Part shown: piece after piece, positions 33,574-38,044 of the stretch
How the letters are laid out: each line of letters starts with the position of its first letter
Position numbering within the stretch: the stretch's first letter is position 1
Source of the DNA: Thermoanaerobaculia bacterium
GTDB taxonomy: Bacteria; Acidobacteriota; Thermoanaerobaculia; Multivoradales; UBA5704
DNA: 64,000 nt
Direction: 5' to 3'
Assembly: GCA_036002325.1 (NCBI GenBank)
Contig: DASYTJ010000012.1
Location: 61,457-125,456, forward strand
Program-made: the position numbers and the translations under genes
The notes under the pieces: generated by a model
The model's database searches: none
What the model saw: the letters and a program-made list of their open reading frames with translations, nothing else
What the model was told of the DNA's origin: nothing

Positions 33574-33646
33574 GGGTCCATAGCTCAGCGGTGAGAGCGT
33601 CCGGCTCATAACCGGCAGGTCCCTGGTTCGAATCCAGGTGGACCCA
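33574..33646 (+). tRNA. tRNA-Met (anticodon CAT; could be tRNA-Ile2 if lysidinylated)
   Basis: Cloverleaf: acceptor GGGTCCA/TGGACCC, D arm GCTC-AGCGGTGA-GAGC, anticodon loop CTCATAA, T arm CCTGG-TTCGAAT-CCAGG; CCA not encoded. Confidence 0.85.
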
Positions 33647-33733
33647 CTTCGGAAGCGCTCCGAGCCATCATGACGATGCGGCCGCGCGGCAGGGAGTGCG
33701 ATGATTTTTCTTGGAGAGGAGCGGACCTTCTCG

Positions 33734-34474
33734 ATGAATCAGAACCTCCAGAACATCCTGGAGCTGCAGGCCGCGCTCACCCGCCTGCGTGAAGCCGAGG
33801 CGCGGCTGAGCGGGATCCCCGACTGGATGCGAGAGCTGCACCAGGAGCACGAGACGCGCAAGGCGGAGATCGCCGCCCTCGAAGAGACCGCCGAAGAGGC
33901 GACCCGGCAGCGGCGGGCGGCGGAGGCGGCGGTCCAGGATGCGCAGGAAAAGCTCAAGAAATACCAGCAGCAGATCAACCGGGTGAGCACGCAGCGCGAG
34001 TATGGCGCGCTGTTGCAGGAGATCGACACCGTCAAGGGGCAGATCTCCAGCCAGGAGGACCAGGCCTTCTCCTCGCTCGAGCACCACGAACAGGCGCAGA
34101 AAGAGCTGGCGGCGCTGCGCGAGAGCTTTCGCGACGTCGAGGAGCGTTATGCCGTCGAGCTGGCCCGTTGGGAGAGCGAAAAGCCGGAGATCTCGCGCCA
34201 GGCGGACGACCTGCGCGGGCGGATCGCGGACCTCAAGCAGCGTCTCCCCCGCAGCCTCGTCTCCCAGTTCGAGCGCATCCTGGACCGGTATCCCTCGGGG
34301 GCGATAGCTCCGGTGCGGCCGATCGAGCGTCCGGGGCGAGGCCAGCGCGAATGGCACTGCGCCGCCTGCAATTACCGGGTGCGCCCCCAGGCCGTCGTCG
34401 AGATCCGCAACGGCGGCAGCCTCGTCCAGTGCGACGCCTGCAAGCGCATCCTCTATCTGGAGGAGCAGGCCTGA
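33734..34474 (+). CDS. C4-type zinc-ribbon domain protein (COG1579/DUF164 family)
   Basis: Coiled-coil N-terminal region then CAACNYRV...CDACKRIL zinc ribbon; RBS GGAGAGGAG upstream of ATG 33734. Confidence 0.7.
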   Translation: MNQNLQNILELQAALTRLREAEARLSGIPDWMRELHQEHETRKAEIAALEETAEEATRQRRAAEAAVQDAQEKLKKYQQQINRVSTQREYGALLQEIDTVKGQISSQEDQAFSSLEHHEQAQKELAALRESFRDVEERYAVELARWESEKPEISRQADDLRGRIADLKQRLPRSLVSQFERILDRYPSGAIAPVRPIERPGRGQREWHCAACNYRVRPQAVVEIRNGGSLVQCDACKRILYLEEQA

Positions 34475-35160
34475 AGGGCGTCGCCGAGCACCTGGCGGGG
34501 ATCAACGCGCGCATCGCGGAGGCCTGCCGGCGCGCCGGCCGGTCCGCCGGAGAAGTGGTCCTGGTGGGCGCCAGCAAGACCCAACCCGCCGCCGTGATCG
34601 CCGAGGCCTGGCAGGCCGGCCTCACCGTGTTCGGCGAGAACCGGGTTCAGGAAGCGCTCGCCAAGAGCCGCGAGCTGCCGCCGGGGATCGAGTGGCACCT
34701 CATCGGTCCCTTGCAATCCAACAAGGTCCGTCCCGCCTTGGATCTGTTCCGCACCGTCCACTCCATCGACCGACTCCCGATCGCCGAGGCCCTGGACCGC
34801 GGGGCCGGCGCTCGAGGCATCGAGATCGCCGGCTTTCTGGAGATCAACCTCGGTGTCGAGGAGAGCAAGCACGGCTTTCCGCCCGCGGGATTGGCCGCAG
34901 CGGTCGGCCCGCTCAGCCGCCTGGAGCATCTGCGGATCGTCGGCCTCATGGCCATCCCTCCCCAAGGCGACGCGCCCGAGGACTCCCGCCCCTGGTTCCG
35001 CAAGCTGCGCGAGCTGCGCGACGATCTCGCCTCCCGCCCCGAGTGGGCGGGCTTCCCCGGCCGGCTCTCGATGGGGATGAGCGATGACTTCGAGGTGGCG
35101 ATCGAAGAGGGTGCCACCCACGTGCGGGTGGGCACGGCCCTCTTCGGACCGCGGCATTGA
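34471..35160 (+). CDS. yggS: YggS family pyridoxal-phosphate homeostasis protein
   Basis: VVLVGASKTQPAAVIAEAWQAGLTVFGENRVQE, WHLIGPLQSNK, HVRVGTALFG; alignment with E. coli YggS puts start at CTG 34471 (overlaps upstream TGA), alternative GTG 34429. Confidence 0.75.
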   Translation: MKGVAEHLAGINARIAEACRRAGRSAGEVVLVGASKTQPAAVIAEAWQAGLTVFGENRVQEALAKSRELPPGIEWHLIGPLQSNKVRPALDLFRTVHSIDRLPIAEALDRGAGARGIEIAGFLEINLGVEESKHGFPPAGLAAAVGPLSRLEHLRIVGLMAIPPQGDAPEDSRPWFRKLRELRDDLASRPEWAGFPGRLSMGMSDDFEVAIEEGATHVRVGTALFGPRH

Positions 35161-35260
35161 GCAAGGCGTTCCCCCAATACCTATGCTAGGATAGCTATCC
35201 TTTTTCGAAGCTGATTCTCGGCAAGATACCGGCGCGAGCCCCGTGGAAGGAGATCCCAGG

Positions 35261-35767
35261 ATGGCCATCACTCCGCTCGAGATCCAGAAGATGCGCTTCT
35301 CGCAGAAGATGCGGGGGTACGATCCCACGGAGGTGGAGGGCTTCCTCTCGCTGCTCGCCGAGGAGCTGGCCGCCCGCGTCGCCCAGGCGGAGAAGCTGGA
35401 GCGCGAGAACCGCTACTACCGGCAACGGCTGGAGGAGACCGAGCATCGGGAGCATCAGCTCCAGCAGACGCTGCTGCGGGCGCAGAAGGTGTCGGACGAC
35501 ATCACCGCCAACGCCCGCCACGAGGCGGAGCTGCTGGTGAAGGAGGCCGAGATCGCGGCCGACAAGATCGTGCAGCAGGCCATCGAGCAGTCCGCCCGCT
35601 TCGAAGCGAAGATTACCGATCTGCGCACCGCCCGGCGCGAGCTGCAGCTCAAGTTCAGGAACACCCTCGACCTTTTCCAGCGCATCCTGGAGGCCGAGAT
35701 GGAGGACGAGCGGACCACGGCCACCGTCCTGACCCTGCCGCGCAAGCGGCGGGAATCTGGAGCTTGA
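35261..35767 (+). CDS. divIVA: DivIVA domain-containing protein
   Basis: MAITPLEIQKMRFSQKMRGYDPTEVEGFL N-terminal DivIVA motif followed by coiled-coil. Confidence 0.75.
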   Translation: MAITPLEIQKMRFSQKMRGYDPTEVEGFLSLLAEELAARVAQAEKLERENRYYRQRLEETEHREHQLQQTLLRAQKVSDDITANARHEAELLVKEAEIAADKIVQQAIEQSARFEAKITDLRTARRELQLKFRNTLDLFQRILEAEMEDERTTATVLTLPRKRRESGA

Positions 35768-36048
35768 GCCTTCCCGCGGCGACGCGGCGCCTCTTTCCGG
35801 ACTGCGACGAAGCGGACCTCACTCCGGAACGAGCGGGCTCTCTGCTGATGGCCCGCGTGCTCGAAGACGGCGACGCGGCGGATCTCGCCTGGCTTCTCGC
35901 AACCATCCCCGAACCTGCTCTCGCCGAGTGGTTCGCCCGCCACGGCGGACGGCAGCTCTCGGTCCGCAGCCGCGCCTTCTGGGAGATCGTGCTCGGGCGC
36001 GCGGCCGGACCGGCCCACTCGGCAGCCGAAGCCCTATGGCCGCTCTGA
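35764..36048 (+). CDS. Small hypothetical protein, candidate cognate antitoxin/partner of downstream nucleotidyltransferase
   Basis: 94 aa; ATGA overlap with divIVA stop and 13-nt overlap with downstream gene, so translationally coupled; no recognisable DNA-binding motif by eye. Confidence 0.35.
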   Translation: MSLPAATRRLFPDCDEADLTPERAGSLLMARVLEDGDAADLAWLLATIPEPALAEWFARHGGRQLSVRSRAFWEIVLGRAAGPAHSAAEALWPL

Positions 36049-36707
36049 CCCTCGCTCACCCCGAAGCGCTCTCGCCGCGTTCCCAGGAGCTGCTGGCGCG
36101 CCTGGCCGAGCGTCCCTGGGCCGAAGAACTCTATCTCGCCGGCTCGGCCGCCCTGGCGCTCTACACCGGCCACCGCCCGGTCACCGATCTCGACCTGATG
36201 AGCAACGCCAACCGGCTCACCGGTCCCGAGCGGCGCGACCTCCTCGGCGAGCTGCTGGCGCTCGACTCCGGCACCGAGGTGGAGACAGCCCGCGACGGCT
36301 ATCTCTTCGCCCGCCTGGGCGGCGTCGGTCTCCGGCTCTTCTACTACCCTTATCCGCTCGTCCGGCCCTTCGAGGACTTCGCCGGGCTCGCCGTCGCCTC
36401 CGCCGTGGACCTCGGCCTGATGAAGCTCGGCGCCGTCATCAGCCGCGGCACGCGGCGCGACTTCGTGGACCTCTATCTCCTCTGCCGCGAGCTGCCTCTC
36501 GCCACGCTGTTCGACCTCGCGGAGGACAAGTTCGGCCACGTCCGCGACTTTCCCCTCCAGGCCCTCAAGGGACTCGCCGACCTCTCGCAGATCGAAGGCG
36601 AGCCCATGCCTCGCCTCGCCCGCCCGCTGGAGTGGAGCGAGGTCGAAGAGTGGCTCCGCTCGCAGGTGCGGGAGATGGGGCGGGCGCACGTGGGACTGAA
36701 TCGGTGA
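36036..36707 (+). CDS. Nucleotidyltransferase, AbiEii/AbiGii-like (type IV toxin-antitoxin toxin family)
   Basis: 223 aa; LYLAGSAALALYTGHRPVTDLDLM (GS...D.D nucleotidyltransferase motif), FYYPYPL, VDLGLMKLGAVISRGTRRDFVDLYLL typical of AbiEii family. Confidence 0.55.
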   Translation: MAALTLAHPEALSPRSQELLARLAERPWAEELYLAGSAALALYTGHRPVTDLDLMSNANRLTGPERRDLLGELLALDSGTEVETARDGYLFARLGGVGLRLFYYPYPLVRPFEDFAGLAVASAVDLGLMKLGAVISRGTRRDFVDLYLLCRELPLATLFDLAEDKFGHVRDFPLQALKGLADLSQIEGEPMPRLARPLEWSEVEEWLRSQVREMGRAHVGLNR

Positions 36708-36747
36708 GGTTGATCGACAGGTTCGCCCGCGAAACCTCACCCCCTGG

Positions 36748-36776
36748 CCCCCTCTCCAGCTAAGCTGGAGAGGGGG
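36748..36776 (+). terminator. Strong hairpin CCCCCTCTCCAGC-taa-GCTGGAGAGGGGG
   Basis: 13-bp perfect stem 40 nt after nucleotidyltransferase stop, just before hutI start; no U-tract. Confidence 0.4.
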
Positions 36777-36787
36777 AACGCGAAATC

Positions 36788-38044
36788 ATGTCCGACCTGC
36801 TGATCCACAATCTCGCGGAAGTGGCCACTCCGGAGGGCCCCACTCCGCTGCGTGGGGCGGAGCAGCGCCGGGTGCGACGGATTCGCGATGCCGAAGTGGT
36901 CTGCCGCGACGGCCGGATCGTCTTCGTGGGGACGGCGGAGGAGCGGCTGCGCCTCTTCGGCGAGGTTTCCGACGCCGAGCGGCTGGACGGCCGCGGCGGC
37001 ACGCTGATCCCCGGGTTCGTCGATCCGCATACCCACCTTCCCTGGGCCGGCAACCGCGAGGAAGAGTTCGCGGCGCGGCTCGCGGGCAAGACCTACCAGG
37101 AGATCGCGGCGGCCGGTGGCGGCATCCTCTCCACCGTGGCGGCCACGCGCCGGGCGAGCGAGGAGGAGCTCGCCGCCAACGTCCTGCGGCGGATGGACCG
37201 CATGCTCGCCTGGGGCACCACCACCGCCGAAGCGAAGAGCGGCTACGGCCTCACCCGCGGCGACGAGCTGAAGCAGCTCCGCGCCATCCACCGCGCCTCC
37301 GAAAACCACGCCGTAGACCTCGTGCCGACCCTCCTCGCCGCGCACGAGGTTCCGCCCGAGCACCGGCAGGACCGCCGCCGCTATCTCGACCTGATCTGCG
37401 ACGAGATCGTGCCGGCCGCCGCCGAGGCCGGGCTCGCCCGCTTCTGCGACGTCTTCTGCGAGGAGGGCGTATTCACCGCCGCGGAGTCCCGCCGGGTGCT
37501 CGAAGCCGGCGTCCGCCGGGGGCTTGCCCCCCGCCTCCACGCCGACGAGTTCGCCGATTCCGGCGGCGCCGAGCTGGCGGCCGACTTGGGAGCGCTCTCC
37601 GCCGACCACCTGATGGCCGTGTCGCCGGCCGGCGTCGAGGCCCTGGCGCGCTCGGGCGTGACCGCCGTGCTGCTGCCCGGCACCAGCTTCTTCCTCATGA
37701 AGCACCGCTACGCTCCCGCCCGCAAGCTCGTCGAAGCCGGCGTGCCGGTCGCCCTGGCGACCGACTGCAACCCGGGCTCTTCGCATACCGAATCCATGCC
37801 CATGGTGGTCGTGCTGGCCGTCTTCGAGCTCGGCCTGACGATCGAAGAGAGCCTCACGGCGGCCACCCTGAACGCCGCCTGCTGCCTCGGCCTCGGCGCG
37901 GAGATCGGCTCCGTCGAGGCCGGCAAACGGGCCGATCTCGTCCTGCTCGACGCTCCCAACCTCCTTCACCTCGTCTACCATTACGGCATCAATCCGGTCG
38001 CCGCGGTCGTCAAGCGGGGACAGGTGGTCCATCGGGCCATTTGA
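36788..38044 (+). CDS. hutI: Imidazolonepropionase (amidohydrolase family)
   Basis: FVDPHTHLPWAGNREEEF, KSGYGL, HADE, DCNPGSS motifs characteristic of HutI. Confidence 0.7.
   Translation: MSDLLIHNLAEVATPEGPTPLRGAEQRRVRRIRDAEVVCRDGRIVFVGTAEERLRLFGEVSDAERLDGRGGTLIPGFVDPHTHLPWAGNREEEFAARLAGKTYQEIAAAGGGILSTVAATRRASEEELAANVLRRMDRMLAWGTTTAEAKSGYGLTRGDELKQLRAIHRASENHAVDLVPTLLAAHEVPPEHRQDRRRYLDLICDEIVPAAAEAGLARFCDVFCEEGVFTAAESRRVLEAGVRRGLAPRLHADEFADSGGAELAADLGALSADHLMAVSPAGVEALARSGVTAVLLPGTSFFLMKHRYAPARKLVEAGVPVALATDCNPGSSHTESMPMVVVLAVFELGLTIEESLTAATLNAACCLGLGAEIGSVEAGKRADLVLLDAPNLLHLVYHYGINPVAAVVKRGQVVHRAI

What the first reader, a model, noticed from the sequence alone, without database searches (positions are those of the whole stretch)
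35764..36707. AbiEii-like nucleotidyltransferase with a small coupled upstream ORF, translationally chained to divIVA
An AbiEii/AbiGii-family nucleotidyltransferase (a type IV toxin-antitoxin or abortive-infection toxin family) is preceded by a 94-aa ORF. That ORF overlaps divIVA by ATGA and overlaps the nucleotidyltransferase by 13 nt, so three unrelated genes appear translationally coupled. The small protein does not look like canonical AbiEi antitoxins (no obvious wHTH), so it may be a novel partner. The pair is embedded in a housekeeping neighbourhood (yggS-divIVA ... hutI) rather than a mobile context, and is followed by a strong 13-bp-stem hairpin.
Basis: partly seen in the sequence, partly recalled or inferred. 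Interest (0 to 1): 0.5.

Follow-up and report, generated by a model that had tools for sequence, protein, structure and literature searches.

The report
Toxin-like nucleotidyltransferase pair fixed beside divIVA
A small helical protein and a toxin-type nucleotidyltransferase, a pairing that is scattered like a toxin-antitoxin module in other bacteria, are here a conserved, vertically inherited part of a cell-division operon in one class of Acidobacteriota, and the enzyme has lost the serine that normally switches such toxins off.

Summary
The divIVA stop and small-ORF start overlap as TTGA, not ATGA. The 94-aa ORF (35764-36048) is a real gene, and the 223-aa gene (36036-36707) passes the Pfam AbiEii/DUF1814 threshold with all four catalytic motifs invariant.

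The small protein is a divergent relative of DUF6922, a family I found in no searched paper. DUF6922-like genes sit next to this nucleotidyltransferase subfamily in 77 of 80 unrelated metagenomic loci, so the pairing is a widespread, undescribed two-gene module.

The Thermoanaerobaculia lineage differs from those scattered relatives:
- The pair lies at one fixed place, (CT398-)yggS-(divIVA)-small-NTase-(hutI), in all 84 loci checked (80 species-level genomes).
- The overlapping start/stop junctions are conserved.
- dN/dS is like that of the housekeeping neighbours.
- The small protein has no HTH domain.
- The conserved Ser/Thr phospho-acceptor of MenT3/AbiEii is replaced by Val.

Best reading: a toxin-antitoxin-derived module domesticated into the divIVA operon. 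Its substrate, toxicity and regulation are inferred, not shown. The "strong hairpin" is one copy of a dispersed REP-like repeat. Novelty: new variant of a known kind. Interest: about 0.5.

The parts
35182..35200 (+). Conserved promoter-like block upstream of divIVA (TATGCTAGGATAGCTATCC). It reads as an extended -10 (TGcTAGGAT, -10 hexamer at 35187-35192) and contains the palindrome AGGATAGCTATCCT.
   Evidence: The block CATGCTA(G/A)GAT(A/G)GCTATC is present in the yggS-divIVA spacer of all 31 related loci printed. The sigma-70 two-hexamer scan found nothing. Promoter function is inferred.
35261..35767 (+). divIVA (168 aa from ATG 35261; the mechanical ORF list starts it at GTG 35243).
   Evidence: PF05103 DivIVA, E 3e-29. 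Homologues in related loci start at MAITPLE.
35764..35767 (+). TTGA junction: the small-ORF start codon TTG overlaps the divIVA stop codon TGA.
   Evidence: An NTGA 4-nt overlap is kept in 44 of about 74 loci that have divIVA. In loci without divIVA, the yggS stop overlaps the small-ORF start as ATGA.
35764..36048 (+). Small ORF, 94 aa: a divergent DUF6922-like all-helical protein with an invariant C-terminal LWPL. Proposed partner/regulator of the nucleotidyltransferase.
   Evidence: 144 homologue clusters. Invariant RLF, EDGD, W56, GR.L..S, W73 and LWPL. 690 representatives at E<=1e-3. PF21956 at 19.3 bits, and 56 of 143 relatives hit PF21956. AlphaFold2 pLDDT 87, with helices at residues 7-10, 21-35, 38-47, 50-64, 67-77 and 86-90. 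dN/dS 0.30.
36036..36048 (+). 13-nt overlap between the end of the small ORF (..LWPL*) and the start of the nucleotidyltransferase (ATGGCCGCTCTGA).
   Evidence: Kept in 58 of 85 loci, usually with a GTG start.
36036..36707 (+). DUF1814/AbiEii-family nucleotidyltransferase, 223 aa.
36141..36146 (+). Nucleotidyltransferase motif I, G36-S37 (hG[GS]).
   Evidence: Invariant in A2. GSA in 118 of 118 close homologues, against GGT in most non-syntenic relatives. Motif definition from PMC3985639.
36174..36194 (+). Nucleotidyltransferase motif II, R47-P-V49-T-D51-L-D53. The position two residues before the first Asp, which is the Ser/Thr phospho-acceptor in MenT3 (S78) and AbiEii (T65), is Val here.
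   Evidence: PMC7205606 and bioRxiv 10.64898/2026.01.19.700257 for the phospho-acceptor position.
36423..36470 (+). Nucleotidyltransferase motif III (K130-L-G-A-V-I-S-R137) and motif IV (R141-D142-F-V-D145).
   Evidence: K130, L131, A133, R137, R141, D142 and D145 are invariant in A2. Coordinates checked. Motif definitions from PMC3985639.
36703..36776 (+). Two hairpins after the nucleotidyltransferase stop: a 9-bp stem at 36703-36741 and a 13-bp stem with loop TAA at 36748-36776. Together they form one copy of a REP-like dispersed repeat and have no U-tract.
   Evidence: Fold -47.5 kcal/mol, z -4.8. Unique in the window. The same AACCTCACCCC..GGCCCCCTCTCC-loop-GGAGAGGGGG unit occurs at other intergenic sites in several related loci, including L006, L016 and L045.
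34474..35160 (+). yggS (PLP-binding YggS family), the conserved upstream neighbour. It directly precedes the small ORF in lineages that lack divIVA at this site.
   Evidence: TIGR00044, 183 bits. Synteny.
36788..38044 (+). hutI (imidazolonepropionase), the usual downstream neighbour.
   Evidence: TIGR01224, 462 bits. Present downstream in 72 of 84 loci.

Best explanation
This is a two-gene module of toxin-antitoxin architecture. A small DUF6922-like helical protein comes first and a DUF1814 (AbiEii/MenT-family) nucleotidyltransferase second, with overlapping reading frames. In the class Thermoanaerobaculia the module has been fixed and domesticated inside the (yggS-)divIVA operon.

Shown:
- Both genes are real and under purifying selection.
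- They are always adjacent.
- They keep start/stop overlaps with the preceding gene and with each other.
- They lie at the same chromosomal place across the class.
- The enzyme keeps all four catalytic motifs but lacks the Ser/Thr phospho-acceptor that is invariant in its scattered relatives.

Inferred:
- The three genes are transcribed from the conserved extended -10-like element upstream of divIVA, or from yggS where divIVA is absent.
- They are translated by termination-reinitiation, so the small protein is made before, and at least as abundantly as, the enzyme.
- The small protein binds the enzyme directly and restrains or directs it, possibly through its invariant C-terminal LWPL tail. 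It does not do so by triggering auto-phosphorylation at the canonical site.
- The free enzyme transfers nucleotides to an RNA 3' end, by analogy with MenT1, MenT3 and AbiEii acting on tRNA. This would tie translation capacity to expression of the division operon.
For: Reality of the genes and family assignment:
- PF08843 at 43 bits.
- Motifs I-IV are invariant.
- The small ORF has 144 homologue clusters with invariant motifs. Its model has pLDDT 87.
- It relates to DUF6922 through 56 of 143 relatives and through L088, which passes the Pfam threshold and matches our protein at E 2.7e-13.

Module status:
- A DUF6922-like gene is adjacent on the same strand in 77 of 80 unrelated metagenomic loci. 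The other three have no room upstream.
- A bona fide DUF6922 protein (64.8 bits) lies upstream of the nucleotidyltransferase on Hymenobacter plasmids.
- An HTH_17+DUF6922 fusion lies upstream of the nucleotidyltransferase, next to an integrase.

Domestication:
- The small ORF is upstream of the nucleotidyltransferase in 84 of 84 loci, which include 80 species-level genomes, with CT398-yggS-divIVA-pair-hutI synteny.
- The same synteny holds in relatives with only 58-62% nucleotidyltransferase identity.
- None of the 80 non-syntenic loci has divIVA, yggS or hutI nearby.
- Median identity: nucleotidyltransferase 78.7%, against yggS 73.8% and divIVA 81.4%.
- dN/dS: 0.22 (nucleotidyltransferase) and 0.30 (small), against 0.15-0.28 for neighbours.

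Coupling:
- Junction statistics.
- Conserved promoter-like block.

Lost switch:
- Val, Ile or Leu two residues before the first Asp of motif II in about 200 syntenic sequences.
- Ser at that position in 80 of 80 non-syntenic relatives.
- That position is S78 in MenT3 (PMC7205606) and T65 in AbiEii (PMC3985639 and the 2026 preprint).

LWPL tail:
- LWPL stays at the extreme C-terminus where the genes do not overlap and after long linker insertions.
Against: - There is no experimental or structural evidence here that the two proteins interact. No multimer prediction was possible.
- Substrate, toxicity and the direction of regulation (inhibitor or activator) are unknown.
- The model of the enzyme is only moderate (pLDDT 80). 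Foldseek gave no significant PDB hit, and no PDB sequence match was found even with profiles.
- The motif II comparison rests on motif alignment, not on a structure-based alignment with MenT3 or AbiEii.
- S37 in motif I, or the non-conserved T50, could serve as an alternative phospho-acceptor.
- dS is probably near saturation, so the dN/dS values are only comparative.
- The fraction of Thermoanaerobaculia genomes that carry the pair was not measured. 137 species genomes matched, but the denominator is unknown.
- One low-coverage contig (L091) has divIVA and the small ORF without a detectable nucleotidyltransferase.
Confidence: 0.6

Rival explanations
1. An ordinary, currently active toxin-antitoxin or abortive-infection system (type IV/VII, AbiE/MenAT-like) that merely happens to sit next to divIVA. 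The nucleotidyltransferase is a growth-arresting toxin, the small protein is its labile antitoxin, and the role is phage defence or addiction.
For: - Antitoxin-first order with overlapping genes, and AbiEii Pfam membership.
- The same pairing occurs in variable contexts elsewhere, including a plasmid next to Fic/VbhA and tra genes, and next to an integrase.
- Weak PADLOC AbiEii hits.
Against: - The position is fixed across 80 species-level genomes and in more distant relatives.
- The conservation level and dN/dS are housekeeping-like.
- There is no HTH and no recognisable promoter of its own.
- The conserved phospho-acceptor is lost.
- There are no relatives in viral contigs and no PHROG hit.
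- PADLOC hits cover only the N-terminal part, with E no better than 3e-5.
Confidence: 0.2
2. The enzyme has been repurposed for a non-toxic housekeeping reaction, nucleotidylylation of a protein, a small molecule or a specific RNA linked to division or PLP/histidine metabolism. The small protein is then a specificity or activating subunit, not an inhibitor.
For: - Class-wide synteny with yggS, divIVA and hutI, and strong purifying selection.
- Loss of the off-switch residue.
- Linkage to divIVA persists in a different upstream context (L091), and linkage to yggS persists where divIVA is absent.
Against: - No candidate substrate is indicated by any result.
- The closest relatives with known activity act on tRNA 3' ends as toxins (PMC7450476, PMC10435456).
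- The gene order and overlap are those of toxin-antitoxin pairs.
- HTH-fused DUF6922 relatives look like autoregulating antitoxins.
Confidence: 0.18
3. The small ORF is not a gene. It is read-through or chance ORF noise in GC-rich DNA between divIVA and the nucleotidyltransferase.
For: - GC-rich sequence gives many spurious ORFs on both strands.
- The start codon is TTG.
- The Pfam hit is below threshold.
Against: - 144 homologue clusters and 690 representatives.
- Invariant residues persist at 35-40% identity.
- dN/dS is 0.30.
- The AlphaFold2 model is confident.
- The ORF is present in 84 of 84 syntenic and 77 of 80 non-syntenic loci.
Confidence: 0.01

Closest known systems
AbiE (AbiEi-AbiEii) of Streptococcus agalactiae and Lactococcus lactis
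   Same: - A DUF1814 nucleotidyltransferase with motifs I-IV (hG[GS], RxxxDhD, KLxAxxxR, +DxxD).
- A bicistronic operon with the partner gene first and overlapping genes.
- The Pfam family PF08843 is met.
   Different: - The partner is not a COG5340 wHTH protein. It is a 94-aa DUF6922-like helical protein with no DNA-binding domain.
- No autoregulated promoter is recognisable.
- The phospho-acceptor equivalent to AbiEii T65 is Val.
- The enzyme is shorter (223 aa).
- The locus is fixed and vertically inherited rather than mobile.
MenAT1 and MenAT3 (MenT1, MenT3/TglT) of Mycobacterium tuberculosis
   Same: - MenA1 is likewise a short partner without a DNA-binding domain, encoded upstream.
- The expected chemistry is nucleotide addition to tRNA 3' ends.
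   Different: - There is no detectable sequence similarity to MenT proteins by phmmer or hmmsearch.
- The partner is unrelated to MenA1 (MazE-like) and MenA3 (COG5340).
- The S78/T39-type phospho-acceptor is absent.
- Conservation extends across a whole class in one operon.
DUF6922 (PF21956) plus AbiEii-like nucleotidyltransferase pairs in other bacteria (for example Hymenobacter plasmids NZ_CP141185 and NZ_CP095054, and the many metagenomic loci found here)
   Same: - The same two families in the same order. The enzymes are 26-41% identical to the window enzyme.
- The small proteins share the core motifs, and many share a C-terminal Trp motif.
   Different: - Those pairs lie in variable contexts, some on plasmids or next to integrases.
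- Some carry an N-terminal HTH on the small protein.
- They keep Ser two residues before the first Asp of motif II, and GGT in motif I.
- None lies next to divIVA, yggS or hutI.
- As far as the searched literature shows, this pairing has not been described or tested.
JHP933 of Helicobacter pylori (PDB 4OK0)
   Different: - Sequence identity is only 19%.
- JHP933 is encoded in a plasticity zone. I state this from memory and did not check it here.
- No DUF6922 partner is known for it.

Membership tests
AbiEii / DUF1814 nucleotidyltransferase (PF08843) | Matches the Pfam model above its gathering score | tested here: met
   43 bits against 22.5, E 7e-11, covering profile positions 2-212 of 238. 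The precomputed PF08843 assignment is present on all 120 listed homologues.
AbiEii / DUF1814 nucleotidyltransferase (PF08843) | Four conserved motifs: I hG[GS]; II R-x3-D-h-D; III KLxA(a)xxR; IV +DxxD (Dy et al. 2014, PMC3985639) | tested here: met
   A35-G36-S37; R47...D51-L-D53; K130-L-G-A-V-I-S-R137; R141-D142-F-V-D145. All key residues are invariant in A2 and A4.
AbiEii / DUF1814 nucleotidyltransferase (PF08843) | DUF1814 fold (pol-beta core plus helical C-terminal domain) | tested here: met
   [not shown]
AbiEii / DUF1814 nucleotidyltransferase (PF08843) | Conserved Ser/Thr phospho-acceptor two residues before the first Asp of motif II (MenT3 S78, AbiEii T65) | tested here: not met
   V49 in the window. 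Val, Ile or Leu in about 200 syntenic homologues. Ser in 80 of 80 non-syntenic relatives. References: PMC7205606 and the 2026 preprint.
AbiE system (type IV/VII toxin-antitoxin, abortive infection) | Cognate COG5340 AbiEi antitoxin with an N-terminal wHTH that represses the operon | tested here: not met
   [not shown]
AbiE system (type IV/VII toxin-antitoxin, abortive infection) | The toxin arrests growth, the antitoxin neutralises it, and the system protects against phage | not testable with these tools
   This needs expression and phage assays.
AbiE system (type IV/VII toxin-antitoxin, abortive infection) | Patchy, mobile-element-associated distribution | tested here: not met
   Fixed synteny in 84 of 84 loci. 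No viral relatives. Housekeeping neighbours.
DUF6922 (PF21956) | Matches the Pfam model above its gathering score (27 bits) | tested here: inconclusive
   The window protein scores 19.3 bits, E 7.7e-4, over residues 8-47. 56 of 143 family representatives hit PF21956 at E<=0.01, best 3e-13. The L088 relative scores 27.1 bits and aligns to the window protein at E 2.7e-13. hhalign against a single Hymenobacter sequence was weak.
DUF6922 (PF21956) | Adjacent to an AbiEii-like nucleotidyltransferase (an association found here, not a published definition) | tested here: met
HEPN/MNT toxin-antitoxin | A minimal nucleotidyltransferase paired with a HEPN protein carrying the Rx4-6H motif | tested here: not met
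   There is no HEPN or NTP_transf_2 Pfam hit for either protein. From reading the sequence, the small protein has no Rx4-6H motif.

The most novel reading that the evidence does not exclude
A toxin-antitoxin-derived nucleotidyltransferase and its DUF6922 partner have been recruited as a core, division-operon-encoded regulator in Thermoanaerobaculia. Expression is hard-wired to divIVA or yggS by translational coupling. The canonical auto-phosphorylation off-switch has been discarded, and control has passed to stoichiometric binding by the small protein through its LWPL tail. The enzyme then links tRNA or another RNA 3'-end status, and so translation, to the cell cycle. This would be a documented case of class-wide domestication of an AbiEii/MenT-type toxin, and would give DUF6922 its first function as a fourth partner family for DUF1814 enzymes.
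Probability: 0.3. Interest if true: 0.65.

Novelty: new variant of a known kind. Interest (0 to 1): 0.5.

Why it matters
DUF1814 (AbiEii/MenT) nucleotidyltransferases are among the most abundant toxin and defence enzymes, and a shared regulatory mechanism, antitoxin-induced auto-phosphorylation, has recently been proposed for them.

This locus adds two things:
- **An undescribed partner family.** DUF6922-like proteins accompany one large subfamily of these enzymes almost without exception. This widens the known set of partners beyond COG5340, MazE-like MenA1 and COG4861.
- **A natural experiment.** In one lineage the module became a fixed operon member next to divIVA and lost the phospho-acceptor residue. 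That makes the question [quoted passage not shown] directly testable. Thermoanaerobaculum is a candidate organism, because a MAG of that genus carries the pair.

Tried and rejected
- **PDB sequence searches.** Searches with the enzyme, with profiles A2 and A4, and with the Hymenobacter homologue found no MenT or AbiEii chain. No residue-level alignment to solved toxins could be printed, so the motif II comparison rests on motif patterns from the papers.
- **NCBIfam and PHROGs.** No hit for either protein. PADLOC gave only weak N-terminal AbiEii hits.
- **tblastn of the small ORF against plasmids.** No match.
- **Viral contig scan.** No relative found.
- **Third homologue search.** Using the Hymenobacter DUF6922 protein returned only 18 close relatives, and one look-up failed.
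- **Isoelectric point.** I considered using it to separate syntenic (acidic) from non-syntenic enzymes. I dropped this because 43 of 72 non-syntenic enzymes are also acidic.
- **LWPL as an overlap artefact.** I considered that the invariant LWPL end merely reflects the embedded start codon. This is rejected because LWPL is kept where the genes do not overlap.
- **P0310 as a DivIVA-DUF6922 fusion.** This is rejected as a probable frameshifted gene call, because its middle part is out-of-frame low-complexity sequence.
- **The hairpin as an operon-specific terminator.** This is rejected in favour of a REP-like repeat copy.
- **Mobile context for the non-syntenic modules.** A Pfam summary of their neighbours showed no dominant mobile-element signature, only heterogeneity. 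"Mobile context" is therefore documented for only a few examples.
Full report
**What is in the sequence**

On the + strand, divIVA ends at 35767. It probably starts at ATG 35261, and it matches PF05103 at E 3e-29. A 94-aa ORF runs from TTG 35764 to TGA 36048. A 223-aa ORF runs from ATG 36036 to 36707.

The small ORF and the next gene overlap by 13 nt. Upstream lie a CT398/CdsZ-like zinc-ribbon coiled-coil gene and yggS (TIGR00044, 183 bits). Downstream lies hutI (TIGR01224, 462 bits).

An exact copy of both proteins is on record from a Thermoanaerobaculia (Acidobacteriota) metagenome-assembled genome.

**The enzyme**

- It passes the Pfam AbiEii (PF08843, DUF1814) threshold: 43 bits against 22.5.
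- It carries the four motifs that define the family (Dy et al. 2014, PMC3985639). These are A35-G36-S37, R47...D51-L-D53, K130-L-x-A-x-x-x-R137 and R141-D142-x-x-D145. All key residues are invariant among homologues.
- Sequence searches of the PDB found no MenT or AbiEii chain, and Foldseek was not significant.

It is therefore a remote but genuine member of the family and looks catalytically competent.

**The small protein**

It is not noise.
- It has 144 homologue clusters in the word-indexed search and 690 representatives at E <= 1e-3 in the exhaustive search.
- Its invariant residues are RLF, EDGD, W56, G-R-x-L-x3-S, W73 and a terminal LWPL.
- Its dN/dS against the window is 0.30.
- The AlphaFold2 model is confident and all-helical (pLDDT 87).

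By Pfam it is a sub-threshold DUF6922 match (19.3 bits against 27). However, 56 of 143 family representatives hit PF21956. One relative, the L088 protein, passes the threshold (27.1 bits) and aligns to the window protein at E 2.7e-13.

No paper in the searched library mentions DUF6922. The partner families reported for DUF1814 toxins are COG5340, MazE-like MenA1 and COG4861 (PMC7450476).

**A general, undescribed pairing**

- On two Hymenobacter plasmids, a bona fide DUF6922 protein (64.8 bits) lies directly upstream of the nearest plasmid-borne relative of the enzyme. Fic/VbhA and tra genes are beside it.
- In a Pseudomonadota genome, an HTH_17+DUF6922 fusion overlaps a 40%-identical enzyme, about 1 kb from an integrase.
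- A metagenome scan with these enzymes found at least 542 relatives. In the best 80 loci a DUF6922-like gene is adjacent on the same strand in 77. The other three have no room upstream. In seven loci the gene order is reversed.
- The neighbours of those 80 modules are heterogeneous: 139 Pfam families among 128 ORFs.
- None of the 80 has divIVA, yggS, hutI, CT398 or FKBP nearby.

**What is special about this lineage**

A scan of one genome per species found 137 genomes with a close relative. The best 80 are all Thermoanaerobaculia, including Candidatus Multivoradales.

| Feature | Result |
|---|---|
| Small ORF directly upstream of the enzyme | 84 of 84 loci |
| CT398-yggS-divIVA-pair-hutI-FKBP order | most loci |
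| Deeper branch lacking divIVA at this site | yggS directly precedes the small ORF |
| 13-nt overlap of small ORF and enzyme | 58 of 85 loci |
| 4-nt overlap with the divIVA stop | 44 of about 74 loci |
| ATGA overlap with yggS | four of the loci that lack divIVA |

The same arrangement holds for relatives with only 58-62% enzyme identity and 37-46% small-protein identity.

A conserved block, CATGCTA(G/A)GAT(A/G)GCTATC, lies upstream of divIVA. It reads as an extended -10 element.

| Gene | Median identity to the window | dN/dS against the window |
|---|---|---|
| hutI | 83.6% | 0.15 |
| divIVA | 81.4% | 0.22 |
| Enzyme | 78.7% | 0.22 |
| yggS | 73.8% | 0.28 |
| CT398 | 71.4% | not computed |
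| Small protein | 58.9% | 0.30 |

No relative was found in viral contigs or PHROGs.

**The lost switch**

In MenT3 the phospho-acceptor S78 lies in R76-x-S78-x-D80-x-D82 (PMC7205606). In AbiEii the acceptor T65 lies in R63-x-T65-x-D67-x-D69. Antitoxin-induced auto-phosphorylation at this residue is proposed as the common neutralisation mechanism (PMC11375011; the 2026 preprint).

All 80 non-syntenic DUF6922-linked enzymes have Ser at this position. Many were found through a search pattern that did not specify it. The window has R47-P-V49-T-D51-L-D53, and about 200 syntenic homologues have Val, Ile or Leu there. Their motif I reads GSA instead of GGT. T50 is not conserved. S37 is invariant and could be an alternative acceptor, but that is speculation.

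**The C-terminal tail**

The small protein always ends in LWPL. This holds after long linker insertions. It also holds where the enzyme start lies 13-56 nt downstream, so that no overlap constrains the codons. A Trp near the C-terminus is also common in the non-syntenic partners (49 of 77). The tail has low confidence in the monomer model. This fits a segment that folds on binding, which is an inference.

**Interpretation**

The best-supported reading is a toxin-antitoxin-type DUF6922/DUF1814 module that was fixed in the (yggS-)divIVA operon of Thermoanaerobaculia. It is co-expressed by translational coupling and has no autoregulatory HTH. Its enzyme is still catalytically equipped but can no longer be switched off at the canonical residue.

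I infer that the small protein controls the enzyme by direct binding, and that the enzyme acts on RNA 3' ends like its characterised relatives. Neither step is shown.

Two rivals remain open:
- An ordinary active toxin-antitoxin or abortive-infection system at a stable site. This is disfavoured by the synteny, the rate of evolution, the lack of an HTH and promoter, and the lost Ser.
- An enzyme repurposed for a non-toxic reaction, with the small protein acting as an activating or specificity subunit.

The idea that the small ORF is spurious is refuted.

**The hairpin**

The 13-bp-stem hairpin at 36748-36776 is real, as is the preceding 9-bp-stem hairpin. The combined unit, AACCTCACCCC..GGCCCCCTCTCC-loop-GGAGAGGGGG, recurs at unrelated intergenic sites in related genomes, often in inverted pairs. 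It occurs, for example, inside the yggS-divIVA spacer of L016. It has no U-tract. The spacing between the enzyme gene and hutI ranges from overlapping to more than 800 nt in other genomes. It is therefore a REP-like repeat copy and not a conserved part of the module.

**Verdict**

This is a new variant of a known kind. It has an uncharacterised partner family for AbiEii/MenT-type enzymes, and a class-wide domesticated lineage that lacks the usual regulatory residue. Interest is about 0.5.

Noticed in passing
window 35182-35200 (yggS-divIVA spacer): The block TATGCTAGGATAGCTATCC is highly conserved across related genomes. It reads as an extended -10 promoter (TGnTAGGAT) and contains the perfect palindrome AGGATAGCTATCCT. 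It is a possible divIVA promoter or operator.
   Followed up: partly
window 36703-36776; also L006:1944-2030, L016:5061-5130, L045:1812-1904, L002:9459-9478, L003:3680-3706, L041, L042: A dispersed REP-like palindromic repeat family (AACCTCACCCC..GGCCCCCTCTCC-loop-GGAGAGGGGG), often in inverted pairs, lies at different intergenic sites in Thermoanaerobaculia genomes. There is only one copy in this 64-kb window.
   Followed up: partly
window 33574-33647 (+): A tRNA-Met (CAT) gene lies between the sulfatase-like gene and the CT398/CdsZ-like zinc-ribbon gene. The reverse strand gives a sub-threshold Rfam 'Plastid-ycf2' match, which is simply the tRNA read backwards.
   Followed up: no
L091:4452-5285: On a 1.97x-coverage contig, divIVA and a small-ORF homologue follow purine-biosynthesis genes. 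No nucleotidyltransferase is detectable downstream. This is either a real orphan partner or an assembly-error artefact.
   Followed up: partly
L113, L117, L136, L153, L162, L164, L174: In seven of the 80 non-syntenic metagenomic loci the gene order is reversed: the nucleotidyltransferase comes first and the DUF6922-like gene lies immediately downstream.
   Followed up: no
L094:4001-4761: A bona fide DUF6922 gene is followed by a 140-aa gene with no Pfam hit instead of a nucleotidyltransferase, near an integrase-like gene and a Fic/VbhA pair. DUF6922 proteins may therefore have other partners.
   Followed up: no
protein P0310 (269 aa, from the representative library): A gene call joins a DivIVA N-terminus to a small-ORF C-terminus through out-of-frame-looking low-complexity sequence. 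It is probably a frameshift artefact rather than a natural fusion.
   Followed up: partly
L137, L156, L165, L169 and neighbouring loci: A subset of the non-syntenic modules share acyl-CoA dehydrogenase and enoyl-CoA hydratase neighbours. This suggests a second, smaller lineage with a stable context.
   Followed up: no
proteins P0257-P0259, P0277, P0305-P0307: Some small-protein homologues carry 30-60-residue low-complexity insertions between the helical core and the terminal LWPL, as if the tail were tethered by a flexible linker.
   Followed up: no
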